From positions 58,738 to 122,737 of the IMG/VR virus record IMGVR_UViG_3300028833_000086: a DNA stretch of 64,000 nt, one strand, 5' to 3'. The translations under genes and the position numbers were made by a program. The notes under the pieces are model-generated. The model did no database searches and was not told where the DNA came from. It saw only the letters and a program-made list of their open reading frames with translations. Below are positions 35,916 through 40,862 of this stretch, one piece after another (the first letter of the stretch is position 1; each line of letters begins with the position of its first letter). The DNA is from a virus. Lineage: Duplodnaviria > Caudoviricetes.

Positions 35916-36158
35916 ATGAACACTAATGAAGATGTGGTAAATCATCCCAGTCATTATACTGCTGGGAAGTATGAAGTAATTGATATGATTAGTGAGATTG
36001 TGGGACATTATGAAGGAGAGGTGGCGTATGATCTTGGCAATACAATAAAGTATATATCTCGTGCAGGGCTAAAGAATCCTGATAAATTAGTCGAAGATTT
36101 AAAAAAGGGACGTTTCTATTTAGATCGTGCTATAAAAAAACTTGAAGAGAGTACTTGA
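35916..36158 (+). CDS. DUF3310-domain protein
   Basis: D.VNHPSHY, GN.IKY..RAG.K and EDLKK...YL. Confidence 0.85.
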   Translation: MNTNEDVVNHPSHYTAGKYEVIDMISEIVGHYEGEVAYDLGNTIKYISRAGLKNPDKLVEDLKKGRFYLDRAIKKLEEST

Positions 36159-36183
36159 CATTATAACAATAATATGTTAATAT
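36155..36183 (+). promoter_or_regulatory. sigma-A promoter driving the RNA island
   Basis: TTGACA-17-TAATAT with TG extension. Confidence 0.7.
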
Positions 36184-36189
36184 ATAATT

Positions 36190-36263
36190 GATGAGGGGCG
36201 TTAAGTCCTGTTCATGTTTTTACCTCCTAGAGTCGGGGCGGAGGTGTCGCAAGCCTCCGCCTC
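36190..36263 (+). ncRNA. candidate sRNA with anti-SD/anti-AUG sequence
   Basis: 5' hairpin, then CATGTTTTTACCTCCT, then GC-rich hairpin GGGGCGGAGG/CCTCCGCCTC. Confidence 0.55.
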
Positions 36264-36282
36264 ATATGGTCTAATCATATAA

Positions 36283-36355
36283 TGAAGAGTAGCTCAGCTG
36301 GATAGAGCGCACGCCTGATAAGCGTGAGGTCGGTGGTTCGAGTCCCCCTCTTCTA
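36283..36355 (+). tRNA. tRNA-Ile(GAU)
   Basis: GCTC/GAGC D-arm, CACGC-ctGATaa-GCGTG, GGTTCGAGTCC; first acceptor pair mismatched. Confidence 0.88.
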
Positions 36356-36738
36356 GTTCAACCGCAGTAATACTTGAATTGACAAGTTATGTCGGGCAAC
36401 AGGGTTGACCGTAGCGGTGCGGTTTCTTCTCGTCTGTACCAACAGGATTAATAAAACAGATATATAGGTTGTAAAGAAGGTGATCCTGACTAAATAGTCT
36501 AAAAACCATCTTCGGTGCTATGAGACCGAGAATCTCATAAGGTTCTCCCTAAGAACTGAAATTAGGCGTATGGAGAGATTGCAGAGCATCGCTCATCCTC
36601 ACTCCACCCCACGAAAATGGTAATTAAAGATGACTGAGAGATGTGTGTAGTGAGAGCGACGAAGAGGACAACATAAGACTCTAACCTCCCATGGCGTAGT
36701 TATGGTTCTGCGTGTGCATGGGGATAAAAACCAACTAA

Positions 36739-36855
36739 GCCCAAACAGTTTGCTATTGTACGTACAAGATGGTAACTTGGCGTGACGCAATATAAAGGTC
36801 GGCTCTGATCTTATCATAACCAATCAGGGCGTAGGTTCGAATCCTACTTTGGGCG
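36739..36855 (+). ncRNA. tRNA-like RNA A (acceptor stem and T-arm with non-canonical core)
   Basis: GCCCAAA/TTTGGGC acceptor stem and GTAGG-TTCGAAT-CCTAC T-arm; 117 nt. Confidence 0.6.
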
Positions 36856-37023
36856 TGATCCTAATCCGAGAATCCTAGGAATGGCAAAAGCTGAAATGCT
36901 ATGTCTACTCGGAGGGCGCGAGCTAATCCGCGAACGAAAGCTGGTCACAGCCCCTTGATTGGAGGCATGAGTATCTTTGAGACAGGAATCCTAGCGATAG
37001 GACGAAAGATATATGGGGCAAAT

Positions 37024-37126
37024 CGGTGAGTGGTGTAATGGTAACACGGCAAGGCTTTTATTCTCCTGTTGCTTACAAAACTTTTCCAAAAATTCGCAGA
37101 TGTTGGTTCAATCCCAGCCTCACCGA
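37024..37126 (+). ncRNA. tRNA-like RNA B (expanded anticodon arm)
   Basis: CGGTGAG/CTCACCG acceptor, GTGT-AATGGTA-ACAC D-arm, GTTGG-TTCAATC-CCAGC T-arm; 49 nt in place of the anticodon arm. Confidence 0.65.
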
Positions 37127-37323
37127 TGTTAAGTGAGAATTAAATGTTGCAGAAAACCAGAGGGTTAGAAGGAGCAACACTGATATGGTGTTGGAGCCTG
37201 ATTACTAGTTTCGATGAGAGGACGCTCTTGCAACAGCTAGCATTTTAAATATAATAATACAAACCAAACATAACGAGGACAATTCCATTAATGACATAAA
37301 GGATGTTTGTAGGAAAGGAGTTT

Positions 37324-37995
37324 ATGGAATGTTTGGTTTGTGGTAAAAAATTAGAAAAGAAACAAACAAAATATTGTTGTAAAGAACATGAAAAAATAAG
37401 CAAAAGAAATAGAGTGGTACAAGCTTGGTTAAATGGTGAAGATCTAGGATATTCAGGTACTGGAATTAAACATTTTATAAGAGATTATCTTTTAGAAAAA
37501 GCTAATTATAAATGTGAAATATGTGGATGGGGGAAAATTAATCCATATAATGGGACATATCCATTAGAAATACACCATAAAGATGGAAATTACAAGCATA
37601 ATACCTTAGATAATTTGCAAGTACTTTGCCCTAATTGTCATAGTTTAACAGATACTTATAAAAGTATGAATAAAGATAGCGTTCGAGATAGAGGTAAATA
37701 CATTGGTAGAAAGAAAGATGTAAGTAATATATGTGTAGATTGTGGCGCAAAAATTTATTACAAATCTGTAAGATGTAGATCTTGTGAATCAAAAAGAAGG
37801 GATAAAATAATAGCAGAAGTAAGAGTCCCAAGAGAAGAATTAAAACAACTTATAAGAACAAAACCATTTTTACAAATTGGTAAAATGTTTAATGTAACAG
37901 ATAACGCTATTCGTAAATGGTGTGATAAATATAAGTTACCAAGAAAGAAATCAGTTATTAATTCTTATTCTGATGCAGAATGGAATTTAATATAA
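37324..37995 (+). CDS. free-standing HNH endonuclease with zinc fingers and C-terminal HTH
   Basis: CEICG...LEIHHKDGN..N...NL..LCPNCH; IGKMFNVTDNAIRKW. Confidence 0.88.
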   Translation: MECLVCGKKLEKKQTKYCCKEHEKISKRNRVVQAWLNGEDLGYSGTGIKHFIRDYLLEKANYKCEICGWGKINPYNGTYPLEIHHKDGNYKHNTLDNLQVLCPNCHSLTDTYKSMNKDSVRDRGKYIGRKKDVSNICVDCGAKIYYKSVRCRSCESKRRDKIIAEVRVPREELKQLIRTKPFLQIGKMFNVTDNAIRKWCDKYKLPRKKSVINSYSDAEWNLI

Positions 37996-38604: not shown

Positions 38605-38761
38605 ACGGTGGAACAGAGGTCGCGAACTCTGGTGGGATAGTAGTATGGGATTGCTGCTATTCGTCCTAAAGGTAAGATGGTTTAAACTAAAACAATCCTA
38701 CCGTCTTATCAGTGGTAGTAGAAGGCCATTATAACGCGAGGTCAACGGCTATCACAAACAT

Positions 38762-38836
38762 CGCGGGATGACGAGCAATTGGAAGCTCACTTGGCTCATA
38801 ACCAAGAGCATGTCAGTTCAAGTCTGACTCCCGCAA
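38762..38836 (+). tRNA. tRNA-Met(CAU), initiator-like (C1:A72)
   Basis: CGCGGGA/TCCCGCA, GAGC/GCTC D-stem, CTTGG-ctCATaa-CCAAG, GTTCAAGTC. Confidence 0.85.
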
Positions 38837-38838
38837 CT

Positions 38839-39180
38839 CGGTTGAAATGTCTTCTGTCATCGTTCCCAAATGACCAGTAGTTCTGGGGAAAAGCAGACGA
38901 ACGAGAGTCTGATCAACTCTCCTATCTGTAAAGGTTCGAAACATGATAGAACGCATACTAAGCCGTCACAATTGCGAGTCGGCTCCGCTAACCGACACTT
39001 TCGAGGTAAGCCAAATAACGGTTAATTGGGCGATAACTCAGGTGCGCAGTGGTCATTGCGCTATACAAATGAGTAGGACAGGTTAGTAGTCTTTTAGGGT
39101 AGCGCCGAAGAGTGAGGATGGGGATCTCGTCCAAGGACACGTATGCTAGAGCCCACTGCTAGTGCTACAAGTGTGGGATA
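38839..39180 (+). ncRNA. unassigned ~340 nt highly structured RNA
   Basis: no ORF; many helices (GCATAC/GTATGC, GCGCAGTG/CATTGCGC, GTCGG/CCGAC, GAGAG/CTCTC, CCCAC/GTGGG); bounded by tRNAs. Confidence 0.55.
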
Positions 39181-39181
39181 T

Positions 39182-39253
39182 AGCCCCTTCGCCAAGTGGT
39201 AAGGCAACGGATTTTGGTTCCGTTATTCACTGGTTCGAATCCAGTAGGGGTTG
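39182..39253 (+). tRNA. tRNA-Gln(UUG)
   Basis: GCC-AAGTGGTAA-GGC D-arm, ACGGA-ttTTGgt-TCCGT, GGTTCGAATCC. Confidence 0.9.
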
Positions 39254-39260
39254 TTTACAT

Positions 39261-39331
39261 AGGGGCTTGGTGTAATGGTAGCATAGCGGTCTCCAAAACC
39301 GCAGGTGGGCGTTCGAGTCGCTCAGTTTCTG
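39261..39331 (+). tRNA. tRNA-Trp(CCA)
   Basis: GCGGT-ctCCAaa-ACCGC, GTTCGAGTC; acceptor stem with three G-U pairs. Confidence 0.85.
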
Positions 39332-39529
39332 TTTGATTCATCAAAAATGATGAGTCGAAAAAAGGAAGTCAATCAACAACTAATTGGAAACGGAGTTGCA
39401 AATCCTAACCAAAGATGTCAGCCTTGGAGAAAGGTCTGTAAAGTGGGTCAGATAGTCAGAGCCTGAAAACCATGCATGCAAAAGACCAAGATAAGTGGCT
39501 TGGGTGGAAATGACAAAAGTTGATTGAAT

Positions 39530-39707
39530 TGAGTGGTGGCAGAAAGGGTAAACGCAAATACAAATTCACGAGGATTCAGCAGTTAACGGTTGGCGGTCAT
39601 GCGAGAATTGAGACTACGTGCCGAAAAAGCGGAACCAGTTGGAGAACATTATACTCAAATCGTGAAGAAAAAGACCGTATGTAAGGTTCGAATCCTTACC
39701 CACTCAT
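39530..39707 (+). ncRNA. tRNA-like RNA C (tRNA shell around a ~120 nt domain)
   Basis: TGAGTGG/CCACTCA acceptor, class-II-like D-arm TGGCAGAAAGGGTAAACGC, GTAAGG-TTCGAAT-CCTTAC T-arm, inner helix TTCACGA/TCGTGAA. Confidence 0.65.
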
Positions 39708-40862
39708 TTGCCGAAATGGGCGCGACAGGCTCGTAAGACCTTTGGCAGAGTCATTAAAATCAAAGACACCAACAAATGAGAAGCGTTTGGTGCGGTAGGC
39801 AAATTTACTCTCTTGCTTATTGCTTGGGGCTATAAAGGCTTCGTCTACTGAGCCAGATCAGTGGACAATTAACAAAATAATAATATCTTAGGAGTTTACT
39901 ATGCAATACAAAGCAATCTTTGATTTACCTGATGATGTAACCCCTCCACGAACTGTAGGGTTTCAGTTTGGGATTATGGTGCAAACTGATCAAGGGATTA
40001 AGTATCAACCAAAAATCTATACGGCGGTTCTCATGCCAATCAAATCCCCACTCGAAGAATGGGAGGATCCCAATGAAACAAATGACAATTGACGATGAAG
40101 ACGCTACGGCAAACGTTAGACGTAATCCATTTGGTATATATGTACCAGAACAAACGAATCAACAATATACAATTCCTGAGGTTTGTAAGAATTGTAATAA
40201 TCATCCGTCAAATGGTGGTAGCGGAGTATGTTGGTGTACTTTAGGTGTAGTATCAGTAACTTGTTGAGGTAAGTTATGACAAGAGAAAAAGCACTGGAAA
40301 TAATTAAAGACATATCAGGATCGGTGGTATATCCAGAACAATTACCCTGCAAATATAAAACTGCTGAGGTACTTGAGGCTGTAGATACATTTGCGGATAC
40401 AATTGATCAACTTCGTAAGGCGCGTAAAAAGGCGCGCAGATATAAACGCATGTTTGTGCGACTTAAACATGCACAATGCAATAGTGAAAAAATAATGGAG
40501 GAAATAAAAGATGAATAAAAATTATAACCCTACACCTGTTTATAACCGCAAGTATGCACGCGAAGTTATCCGTGCTCAGGTACTTAAAAAGAATGGATAT
40601 CATAATGTTAGTAAGACTATGAGTCTTATGTTTAAGATGATGCGTAAGCGTGCACAGGAGGCGGCAGAATGAAACATACAATAACATTTAACACACCAGC
40701 AGAGATTAAAGAGATCCATGACATCCGCGTATCTTTTCTCGATCAGGATGATAAAGCTTACTTCCTAAATGTCAAAGCTAGTACAAAGGTTGAAGAGGTA
40801 AACAATATTAACTGGAAGATTGCAGCAAGAATTAAAGAGCTTAATGAGGATAAGGAGTAATT

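What the first reader, a model, noticed from the sequence alone, without database searches (positions are those of the whole stretch)
36155..39870. A 3.7 kb phage 'RNA island': tRNA-punctuated array of tRNA mimics, a ribozyme and unassigned structured RNAs
Seen: apart from one HNH gene, this stretch is non-coding and more GC-rich than its flanks. It is driven by two near-identical promoters (36155, 38487). Only ~530 nt are ordinary tRNAs. The rest is a chain of self-closing cassettes: 36360-36424 (AACCGCA/TGCGGTT), ~36465-36733, 36856-37020, 37145-37234 (TGTTGCA/TGCAACA), 38071-38120 (CTGAGG/CCTCAG), 38839-39180, 39369-39527 (TCAATCAAC/GTTGATTGA) and 39706-39804 (ATTTGCC/GGCAAAT). It also has three tRNA shells and a pistol ribozyme. 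T-loop-like motifs (GTTGAAAT, CCGAGAAT, GCTGAAAT, GGTAGCGCC) recur. Established: large ornate RNAs such as GOLLD and ROOL, and self-cleaving ribozymes, occur in phage tRNA clusters. Inference: RNase P/Z cuts at tRNAs and tRNA-like shells, plus self-cleavage, release about ten discrete non-coding RNAs. These could form an RNA-based anti-defence or translation-control toolkit.
Basis: partly seen in the sequence, partly recalled or inferred. Interest (0 to 1): 0.85.

Follow-up and report, generated by a model that had tools for sequence, protein, structure and literature searches.

The report
Phage tRNA island packed with new RNAs
A 3.7 kb stretch of an uncultured phage carries eight tRNAs, three tRNA-like shells, a pistol ribozyme and about ten conserved folded RNAs that match no known family, and one of these belongs to a widespread phage-only family that always starts at the exact 3' end of a tRNA.

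Summary
Window 36155-39870 is non-coding apart from one HNH gene and is more GC-rich than its flanks. It has two near-identical sigma-70 promoters, 7 canonical tRNAs, one tRNA with a 45-nt anticodon-arm replacement, two further tRNA-like shells and a pistol ribozyme. Rfam 15 matches nothing else.

About eight related uncultured phages carry the same cassettes in shuffled order. The cassettes are as conserved as, or more conserved than, neighbouring genes. Most show compensatory base changes.

- The claimed 38071-38120 closure is wrong. The real element (S7) is 38073-38217.
- The 340-nt "ornate RNA" is composite: a window-specific 135-nt insert plus a 208-nt conserved unit.
- Most of the recurring "T-loop-like" words are not conserved.

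The main new result is S7. It belongs to a phage-only family with 19 members in at least 10 lineages. Its structure has 91.6% of cells paired, 17 covarying pairs and about 30 invariant, mostly unpaired bases. Where a tRNA is called upstream (13 of 19), S7 begins at +1 after its 3' end. There is one copy in each genome searched.

Most likely the island is a tRNA-punctuated precursor. RNase P, RNase Z and the pistol ribozyme would cut it into discrete RNAs. S7 may be a tRNA 3'-end processing element or ribozyme. Expression, processing and any anti-defence role are untested.

The parts
36155..36183 (+). Promoter P1 (TTGACA, 17-nt spacer, TAATAT, extended -10 TG)
   Evidence: near-identical to P2; a third copy lies elsewhere in the genome
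36191..36281 (+). S1, 5' leader RNA with two strong hairpins, specific to this phage and its near-identical relative G009
   Evidence: MFE z = -3.05; no homologue in the more distant relatives; present at 97% identity in G009
36282..36356 (+). tRNA-Ile(GAU)
   Evidence: 52 bits
36357..36430 (+). S2a: small hairpin element directly after the tRNA. The 5' 40 nt are conserved in 4 phages
36431..36740 (+). S2b: 310-nt conserved structured RNA. One relative has a domain-sized 78-nt deletion
   Evidence: 68 pairs, 95% paired, 4 compensatory against 0-1 in slid controls
36741..36855 (+). S3: tRNA-like shell A. It has a 7-bp acceptor stem, a perfect T-arm, an extended D-like hairpin and an 8-bp 'anticodon' stem with a non-canonical loop
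   Evidence: Rfam tRNA 18.4 bits, below the cut-off; 4 sequences with 7 compensatory pairs, including one in the acceptor stem
36856..37023 (+). S4: structured RNA with an invariant core. The 3' third is variable
   Evidence: 6 compensatory pairs in 4 sequences
37024..37126 (+). S5: tRNA-like shell B. Acceptor, D and T arms are intact. The anticodon arm is replaced by a hairpin plus about 25 nt of A/U-rich single strand
   Evidence: Rfam tRNA 41.7 bits with a 45-nt insertion; ARAGORN calls nothing; D-stem and insert hairpin covary
37127..37245 (+). S6: inter-tRNA structured RNA. It also occurs in an unrelated 146-kb phage between a tRNA-like element and tRNA-Tyr
   Evidence: 10 compensatory pairs; closing stem compensated
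37303..37995 (+). HNH homing-endonuclease gene, with its own promoter-like site at 37228-37255
   Evidence: HNH plus tRNA-Thr is absent from the near-identical relative G009 and from G006
38002..38072 (+). tRNA-Thr(UGU), which travels with the HNH gene
38073..38217 (+). S7: member of a widespread phage RNA family that abuts a tRNA 3' end. Order of parts: tail, H1, UGAU, H2 with an AGCAG loop, GAGAA linker, H3 domain, ACUGC tail
38218..38388 (+). tRNA-Leu(UAA) and tRNA-Leu(CAA)
38389..38486 (+). S8: conserved spacer upstream of promoter P2. It is either an RNA 3' segment of unit 1 or DNA-level promoter context. Unresolved
   Evidence: z = +1.35
38487..38515 (+). Promoter P2
38523..38599 (+). 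Pistol ribozyme. The predicted cut lies between G38599 and C38600
   Evidence: Rfam 43.6 bits; P1, pseudoknot, P2 and P3 are 99% paired with 5 compensatory pairs; A32, G33, G40, C41 and G42 are present
38600..38761 (+). S10: four-helix RNA framed by the pistol cut and the 5' end of tRNA-Met
   Evidence: 41 pairs, 10 compensatory, 4 distinct sequences; z = -3.2
38762..38837 (+). tRNA-Met(CAU)
38838..38972 (+). S11a: 135-nt insertion found only in this phage
   Evidence: absent in G009 and G006
38973..39180 (+). S11b: 208-nt conserved unit, 96-100% identical in relatives. It lies directly after tRNA-Met in G006
   Evidence: too little variation to test the structure
39181..39332 (+). tRNA-Gln(UUG) and tRNA-Trp(CCA)
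39369..39527 (+). S12: 159-nt RNA closed by a 9-bp stem. It is among the most conserved cassettes (92-95% identity)
   Evidence: closing stem compensated in two relatives
39532..39705 (+). S13: tRNA-like shell C. It has a class-II-type D-arm, a T-arm and an acceptor stem around a 120-nt cargo domain
   Evidence: 7 compensatory pairs against G002; the same shell carries two other cargos in G003 and G006
39706..39804 (+). S14: 99-nt RNA closed by a 7-bp stem
   Evidence: one distant homologue directly after a tRNA in another phage lineage, with its closing stem wholly replaced by a complementary pair

Best explanation
The island is a two-promoter tRNA/non-coding-RNA operon. It sits in a large phage from uncultured metagenome records that probably infects Bacillota.

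Proposed mechanism:
- Each long precursor is cut at the tRNAs and the tRNA-like shells by host RNase P (5' sides) and RNase Z (3' sides; none of the tRNAs whose 3' junctions were read encodes CCA).
- The pistol ribozyme, placed right after the second promoter, removes the 5' leader. This leaves a 5'-OH on the 162-nt S10 RNA.
- The result is about nine to eleven discrete, selected, folded RNAs besides the tRNAs.

Shown here: the tRNAs, shells, pistol fold and promoters. Also shown: conservation, covariation and modular shuffling of the cassettes, and the coincidence of cassette edges with tRNA edges.

Inferred: co-transcription, the enzymatic cuts and accumulation of the products.

S7 (38073-38217) belongs to a phage-only family. 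Its 5' end is the tRNA 3' end wherever a tRNA is called upstream. It has an invariant, largely unpaired core around a hairpin-loop/3'-tail pseudoknot. I read it as a cis-acting element that defines or makes the tRNA 3' end. The leading idea is a self-cleaver that cuts at its own 5' end, as theta (HDV-like) ribozymes do. That sub-claim has roughly 25-30% odds.

The HNH gene is a homing endonuclease that moves with tRNA-Thr. This helps explain the mosaic order of the cassettes.
For: - Non-coding and GC-rich.
- Promoters.
- tRNAs and pistol.
- Pistol fold kept by 5 compensatory pairs, 3 of them in the pseudoknot.
- Cassettes conserved at 77-97% identity against 75-86% for neighbouring genes.
- Cassettes shuffled among relatives.
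- Compensatory changes: S3 7, S4 6, S6 10, S10 10, S13 7, S2b 4, S12 2, all above slid controls.
- S7 structure: 19 sequences, 27 pairs, 91.6% paired against 30-42% when slid, 17 pairs changed on both sides, 0 of 500 shuffles as high.
- 19 of 22 pattern hits in IMG/VR have a 5/5 complementary H2 stem with 5 different sequences. The 3 chance hits there had 0-2 of 5 complementary pairs. None of the 32 hits in prokaryote genomes had 4 or more.
- The covariance model gives 105-140 bits to members and nothing to the 35 chance hits.
- In 13 of 19 members an ARAGORN tRNA ends 19-21 nt before the UGAU motif, so S7 starts at +1. In 9 of 19 the next tRNA starts 3-8 nt after S7.
- A second mini-copy again sits at +1 after a tRNA.
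- In 4 lineages the upstream tRNA(-like) element (ARAGORN tRNA-Met in 3 of them) encodes CCA and S7 follows directly. From general knowledge RNase Z is poor on such substrates, so a dedicated cut is plausible.
- The HNH plus tRNA-Thr segment is absent from a relative that is 96-100% identical elsewhere.
Against: - There are no transcript data.
- Most cassettes have only 2-5 homologues from one clade. Their structures came from RNAalifold, so the slid controls are biased in their favour.
- S1, S8, S11a and S11b have no covariation evidence.
- Several cassettes have unremarkable folding z-scores.
- No clear terminator ends the island.
- The S7 pseudoknot is invariant, so it is untested by covariation.
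- S7 fits neither the hatchet nor the HDV-like topology, and no Rfam ribozyme matches it.
- In CCA-less cases RNase Z alone would explain the +1 junction.
Confidence: 0.62

Rival explanations
1. The spacers are cis-acting parts of tRNA precursors only. They would serve as folding, insulation, stability or processing aids and have no function once released.
For: - Every cassette sits between tRNAs or tRNA-like units.
- S7 is single-copy and glued to a tRNA 3' end.
- No shared protein partner lies near S7 across lineages.
Against: - Lengths of 100-310 nt and about 30 invariant, mostly unpaired bases in S7 are far more than insulation needs.
- The same cassette follows different tRNAs in different phages.
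- S10 is given its own promoter and ribozyme.
Confidence: 0.2
2. The cassettes are an RNA anti-defence or host-takeover toolkit. Decoy tRNA shells and other RNAs would bind or titrate host nucleases or translation factors.
For: - Phage tRNA clusters are known anti-defence loci, and homing endonucleases associate with them (PMC13096335, PMC2330249).
- The shells keep the tRNA elbow but lose the anticodon arm.
- The S13-type shell carries three different cargos.
Against: - No test here bears on it.
- Shells that lack an anticodon loop cannot decoy anticodon nucleases.
- No defence-related partner gene was found.
Confidence: 0.12
3. The non-tRNA sequence is decayed tRNA genes, recombination scars left by homing-endonuclease traffic, or unannotated small-protein genes.
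For: - The order of cassettes is mosaic and the HNH gene is present or absent.
- S11a is a lineage-specific insert.
- The shells look like damaged tRNAs.
Against: - Conservation equals or exceeds that of coding DNA.
- Compensatory changes are seen.
- Most ORFs are broken or only partial in relatives.
- The S7 family spans at least 10 phage lineages.
Confidence: 0.06

Closest known systems
Phage T4 tRNA gene cluster, with its small stable RNAs and the SegB homing endonuclease
   Same: The tRNAs are co-transcribed with extra small RNAs of unknown function and processed from common precursors (the T4 stable RNAs are from my own knowledge). A free-standing homing endonuclease gene sits inside the cluster and is present or absent among relatives (PMC2330249, PMC13096335).
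   Different: Here non-tRNA RNA makes up most of the island (about 2.3 kb against 0.54 kb of tRNA). The endonuclease is HNH rather than GIY-YIG. A ribozyme and tRNA shells with inserted domains are present. No sequence homology was tested or expected.
Theta (minimal HDV-like) ribozymes at the 3' ends of phage tRNAs (PMC10879173)
   Same: S7 starts at the tRNA 3' end. It is phage-restricted, often follows tRNA-Met, usually has G at +1 and is found in uncultured phages.
   Different: S7 is 130-150 nt (mini form about 80 nt) with a different topology: H1, H2, a loop/3'-tail pseudoknot and an H3 domain. It has no P1/P1.1/P3 arrangement and no Rfam HDV hit. Self-cleavage is untested. No phage CCA-adding enzyme was found in the 5 S7-bearing records searched, whereas it is enriched in theta-carrying phages.
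Pistol ribozyme (RF02679)
   Same: The Rfam score is above the cut-off. P1, the 6-bp pseudoknot, P2 and P3 are present, as are the conserved A32, G33, G40, C41 and G42. Its setting near Firmicutes-type phage genes matches PMC6154101.
   Different: The scissile step is G-C instead of the usual G-U in all five copies seen. P3 is unusually long (10-11 bp) in four of them. Its fixed place, starting 8 nt after the -10 box and in front of a conserved RNA and a tRNA, gives it a clear candidate role as a 5'-end maker.
Large ornate RNAs near phage tRNAs (GOLLD, ROOL) and the Drum motif
   Same: The genomic context is the same: structured non-coding RNAs next to tRNAs and self-cleaving ribozymes in phages.
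   Different: None of these families matches at E<=5. The cassettes here are smaller (75-310 nt) and modular.
tmRNA, bacterial Y-RNA-like YrlA and engineered 'tRNA scaffolds'
   Same: A tRNA-like acceptor/T-arm (and D-arm) module is joined to a foreign RNA domain. The engineered scaffold places its cargo in the anticodon stem, as S5 and S13 do (from my own knowledge).
   Different: ARAGORN finds no tmRNA and there is no tag ORF. There is no YrlA hit in Rfam. In YrlA the RNA ends lie in the Ro-binding stem, whereas here they lie in the acceptor stem.

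Membership tests
tRNA (RF00005) | Score above the gathering cut-off, with four arms and a 7-nt anticodon loop | tested here: met
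   Seven genes are called by ARAGORN and score 38-60 bits
tRNA (RF00005), applied to the three shells | A canonical anticodon arm | tested here: not met
   S5 scores 41.7 bits only by treating 45 nt as an insertion. S3 scores 18.4 bits, below the cut-off of 29. S13 has no hit. ARAGORN calls none of them
Pistol ribozyme (RF02679) | Covariance-model score above the gathering cut-off | tested here: met
   43.6 bits against 34.5. Relatives score 36.9-37.8
Pistol ribozyme (RF02679) | P1 hairpin whose loop forms a 6-bp pseudoknot, plus P2 and P3 | tested here: met
   26 pairs are 99% paired. Five are compensatory, 3 of them in the pseudoknot
Pistol ribozyme (RF02679) | G-U at the scissile step | tested here: not met
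   The step is G-C (38599/38600) in all copies. The effect on activity is unknown
Pistol ribozyme (RF02679) | Mg2+-dependent self-cleavage | not testable with these tools
   Needs an in-vitro transcription assay
Hatchet ribozyme (RF02678), considered for S7 | 5' P1 hairpin, 3-nt linker, then a P2-L2-P3-L3-P4 arm that encloses the conserved bulge | tested here: not met
   No Rfam hit at E<=10. In S7, H2 encloses only a 14-nt loop and H3 lies 3' of it, so the two are not collinear with the description in PMC6561176
HDV-like / theta ribozyme, considered for S7 | Nested double pseudoknot P1/P1.1/P2/P3/P4 with a catalytic C in J4/2 | tested here: not met
   No Rfam HDV-family hit. Manual threading fails because H1 and H2 are fixed by covariation
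HDV-like / theta ribozyme, considered for S7 | The 5' end coincides with a phage tRNA 3' end | tested here: met
   13 of 19 members have an ARAGORN tRNA ending at -1. Most of the rest show a T-arm plus acceptor strand at the same place
GOLLD, ROOL, raiA, OLE, HEARO, Drum, YrlA, tmRNA | A match to the Rfam model (for tmRNA, an ARAGORN call) | tested here: not met
   No hit at E<=5 over 35900-40100. ARAGORN finds no tmRNA
HNH homing endonuclease | HNH domain, free-standing gene, presence/absence polymorphism with co-converted flanks | tested here: met
   PHROG HNH families match at E 8e-25. The gene is absent in G009 and G006. In G009 the adjacent S7/tRNA-Leu segment is only 74% identical while the flanks are 96-100%

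The most novel reading that the evidence does not exclude
The S7 family is a new class of self-cleaving RNA, or otherwise an autonomous tRNA 3'-end maker, that cuts at its own 5' terminus. That would make it a third such class after HDV-like and hatchet ribozymes. The S5- and S13-type shells would be natural 'tRNA scaffolds' that phages use to express, process and stabilise swappable cargo RNAs.
Probability: 0.2. Interest if true: 0.9.

Novelty: new variant of a known kind. Interest (0 to 1): 0.72.

Why it matters
Phage tRNA clusters are usually read as codon-supply or anti-defence loci. Here most of the transcribed sequence is not tRNA. It consists of about ten selected, folded RNAs of unknown families.

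Three things follow if the reading holds:
- S7 is a well-supported new RNA family: 19 members, strong covariation and a ribozyme-like invariant core. It is tied to tRNA 3' ends in many uncultured phages. That gives a directly testable candidate for a new processing ribozyme or protein-binding RNA.
- The pistol ribozyme gets a concrete job, making the 5'-OH end of a defined RNA. The biological role of pistol ribozymes has been an open question.
- Conserved tRNA shells with exchangeable inner domains suggest that phages use the tRNA fold as an expression and processing scaffold, as biotechnologists do.

Tried and rejected
- Rfam at permissive thresholds on the island, on S7 alone and on two more S7 members gave only tRNA and pistol.
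- GenBank phages (INPHARED): blastn with the island found tRNAs only. Blastn with an S7 member found nothing.
- Prokaryote species genomes: the strict S7 pattern gave 0 hits. The loose pattern gave 32 hits, none with 4 or more of 5 complementary H2 pairs. They served as negative controls.
- Pattern scans for S4, S10, S12 and S14 found only the same clade. S14 added one distant phage and S6 added one unrelated 146-kb phage.
- Threading S7 onto HDV-like, hatchet, hammerhead and hairpin cores by eye gave no consistent fit. S7 is not filed under any of them.
- A column-pair scan of the 19-sequence S7 alignment found no tertiary partner for the 5' tail GNNG. There is too little variation.
- A search for a shared protein near S7 across lineages found none. 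The only 'family' was antisense ORFs over S7 itself.
- No CCA-adding enzyme or RtcB is encoded by five S7-bearing phages.
- The catalogue of about 8,500 IMG/VR candidate RNAs (PMC10690425) could not be checked, because no supplementary files are held. Some cassettes may already be listed there without names.
- Small-ORF reading of the cassettes: most ORFs are interrupted or only partial in relatives.

Full report
**What the window is.** The window is part of a 122.7 kb IMG/VR virus record that is 97% complete. The island is flanked by an exonuclease gene, a nucleotide-kinase-like gene and a DnaE-type DNA polymerase gene with an in-frame HNH insert. The polymerase is 44% identical to those of 140-170 kb Bacillus and Geobacillus phages (several named as siphoviruses). 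A Bacillota host is therefore likely.

**Checking the observation.** Between 36155 and 39870 the only real gene is an HNH endonuclease at 37303-37995.
- The other ORFs of 40-74 aa are mostly interrupted or only partial in relatives.
- GC is 44-49% against 30-40% outside.
- The two promoters at 36155 and 38487 are the best + strand hits of the scan, tied with one at 37228. Both have TTGACA, a 17-nt spacer and an extended -10. A third copy of the same promoter lies elsewhere in the genome.
- ARAGORN finds 7 tRNAs totalling 537 nt.
- Rfam adds a tRNA with a 45-nt insertion in place of the anticodon arm (37024-37126) and a pistol ribozyme (38523-38583). It also gives a weak T-arm/acceptor hit at 36802-36855.
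- Nothing else matches at E<=5.

**Relatives.** I fetched related loci through the polymerase and through DNA patterns.
- About eight related uncultured phages carry such islands: G001, G002, G003, G006, G008, G009 and near-duplicates.
- The cassettes recur but in different orders and next to different tRNAs.
- G006 is a complete 126 kb genome with terminal repeats. Its island is 4 kb with no ORF of 80 aa or more except three unexamined overlapping frames of 107-117 aa, and it has no HNH gene.
- G009 is 96-100% identical to the window. It lacks HNH plus tRNA-Thr (a tRNA-Tyr sits there instead). It also lacks 38838-38972.
- In G009 the adjacent S7/tRNA-Leu segment is only 74% identical. This is the pattern expected from homing-endonuclease traffic, as for SegB in the T4 tRNA cluster (PMC2330249).

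**Are the spacers selected RNAs?**
- Nucleotide identity to relatives is 77-97% for the cassettes. S12 is 92-95%, S11b 97% and S10 85-88%. The neighbouring exonuclease, polymerase and HNH genes are at 75-86%.
- Compensatory changes support helices in S2b, S3, S4, S5, S6, S10, S12, S13 and S14. Paired cells reach 95-100%, against 20-47% when partners are slid.
- These alignments hold only 2-5 sequences, and the structures were chosen by RNAalifold. The support is real but modest.
- S1, S8, S11a and S11b have no such evidence.

**The pistol unit.** The pistol fold is kept through five compensatory pairs, three of them in the pseudoknot, in the divergent G006 copy.
- The residues named as catalytic or structural in PMC6154101 (A32, G33, G40, C41, G42) are present.
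- The scissile step is G-C (38599/38600), not G-U, in every copy.
- The ribozyme begins 8 nt after the -10 box. It is followed by S10, a 162-nt four-helix RNA with 41 pairs, 10 of them compensatory. S10 ends at the 5' end of tRNA-Met.
- The order promoter, pistol, S10, tRNA is kept in five phages.
- The inferred product is an RNA with a ribozyme-made 5'-OH and an RNase P-made 3' end.

**The tRNA-like shells.**
- S5 keeps the acceptor, D and T arms, and its D-stem covaries. It replaces the anticodon arm with a short hairpin plus about 25 nt of A/U-rich single strand.
- S3 keeps the acceptor stem and T-arm. It has an extended D-like hairpin and an 8-bp stem whose loop differs among phages.
- S13 has a class-II-type D-arm, a T-arm and a covarying acceptor stem around a 120-nt domain.
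- In G003 and G006 essentially the same shell encloses two unrelated inner segments of about 55-62 nt. The scaffold is conserved and the cargo is exchangeable.

**S7, the main new result.** A pattern built from the conserved words was scanned against IMG/VR: UGAU, 9 nt, AGCAG, 11 nt, GAGAA, 58-88 nt, RRACUGC. It returned 22 loci.
- In 19 loci the five-base H2 stem is perfectly complementary, with five different sequences. In the other three it matches at 0-2 of 5 positions.
- The same pattern in 185,579 prokaryote species genomes gave 32 hits, about the number I estimated for chance. None had 4 or more complementary pairs.
- The 19-sequence alignment supports H1, H2, a roughly 10-bp H3 enclosing a variable junction, and H4.
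- It has 27 pairs, 91.6% of cells paired against 30-42% when slid, and 17 pairs with changes on both sides. None of 500 shuffles was as high.
- A four-base pairing between the AGCAG loop and the ACUGC tail is possible in all members. It is invariant and so untested.
- About 30 mostly unpaired positions are invariant. Loop positions 33/43 and 34/40 co-vary in a non-Watson-Crick way.
- By inspection, UGAU and AGA flanking H2 could form tandem sheared G-A pairs, as in k-turn-like motifs. This is inference.
- A covariance model scores members at 105-140 bits and none of the 35 chance loci. It finds one copy in each of the five virus records searched with it (four of them at least 96% complete), plus one 79-nt mini-version.

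**Context of S7.**
- In 13 of 19 members an ARAGORN tRNA (Met, Thr, Trp, Gln, Leu or Tyr) ends exactly at S7 position -1.
- Most of the others show a T-arm and acceptor strand there.
- In 9 of 19 the next tRNA starts 3-8 nt after S7.
- In four lineages the upstream tRNA (or tRNA-like element) encodes CCA and S7 follows at once.
- No protein family is shared around S7 across lineages.
- The family is absent from 50,697 GenBank phage records.
- S7 matches no Rfam family and fits neither the hatchet nor the HDV-like topology (PMC6561176, PMC10879173).

**How it most likely works.** The island is a tRNA-punctuated precursor system.
- Unit 1 runs from promoter P1 through S1, tRNA-Ile, S2 to S6, (HNH), tRNA-Thr, S7, the two tRNA-Leu genes and S8.
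- Unit 2 runs from promoter P2 through the pistol ribozyme, S10, tRNA-Met, S11, tRNA-Gln, tRNA-Trp and S12 to S14.
- It is dissected by RNase P, RNase Z and the pistol ribozyme.
- For S7 I favour a cis role at the tRNA 3' end, possibly self-cleavage, with odds of about 25-30%. Release as a stable protein- or ligand-binding RNA is the alternative.
- No phage CCA-adding enzyme or RtcB is encoded, so host enzymes would finish the ends.

**Limits.**
- There are no transcript data.
- Most families are small and come from a single clade.
- A published catalogue of unnamed IMG/VR candidate RNAs could not be checked.
- The anti-defence idea remains speculation. Its only support is the known link between phage tRNA clusters, homing endonucleases and defence evasion (PMC13096335).

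**Verdict.** The kind of locus is known: a phage tRNA cluster with extra RNAs, ribozymes and a homing endonuclease. The RNA families, the tRNA-shell-with-cargo design and the S7 family appear new.

Noticed in passing
window 41183-45124: The DnaE-type DNA polymerase ORF (1313 aa) carries an in-frame HNH endonuclease-like segment at about residues 873-995. This could be an intein-like or domain insertion.
   Followed up: no
window about 48919-48947 (G000:C1:107656-107684): A third copy of the island's promoter sequence (93% identical over 29 nt) lies 9 kb downstream. This suggests a phage-specific promoter class.
   Followed up: no
window 37245-38305 compared with G009 (L056): A relative that is otherwise 96-100% identical lacks HNH plus tRNA-Thr and has tRNA-Tyr instead. 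Its adjacent S7 and tRNA-Leu(UAA) are only 74% identical. This looks like a homing-endonuclease co-conversion tract.
   Followed up: partly
window 38838-38972: A 135-nt insert (S11a) between tRNA-Met and S11b is unique to this phage.
   Followed up: partly
L044:8050-8128: A second, minimal (79 nt) S7-like element lacks the H3 domain. It again starts at +1 after a tRNA (tRNA-Ser) and sits in a phage that also has a full-length S7.
   Followed up: partly
L030:5715-5830 and L039 (reverse strand; G006 island 4924-5031): The same tRNA-like shell as S13 (acceptor, D-arm, T-arm) encloses two unrelated inner segments in two relatives. In both it is followed directly by S7.
   Followed up: partly
L044 (12 tRNAs, spacers of 300-785 nt) and L063: Other, unrelated phage lineages with S7 also have long non-coding spacers between tRNAs. 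tRNA islands rich in unassigned RNA may be common in these metagenomes.
   Followed up: no
window 39333-39358: A perfect 11-bp hairpin after tRNA-Trp is followed by an A-run on the + strand, which would be a T-run on the - strand. It looks like a terminator for the opposite strand rather than for the island.
   Followed up: no
window 38389-38486: Spacer S8 upstream of promoter P2 is conserved in three relatives but shows no folding signal. It may be DNA-level promoter context or the 3' end of unit 1.
   Followed up: no
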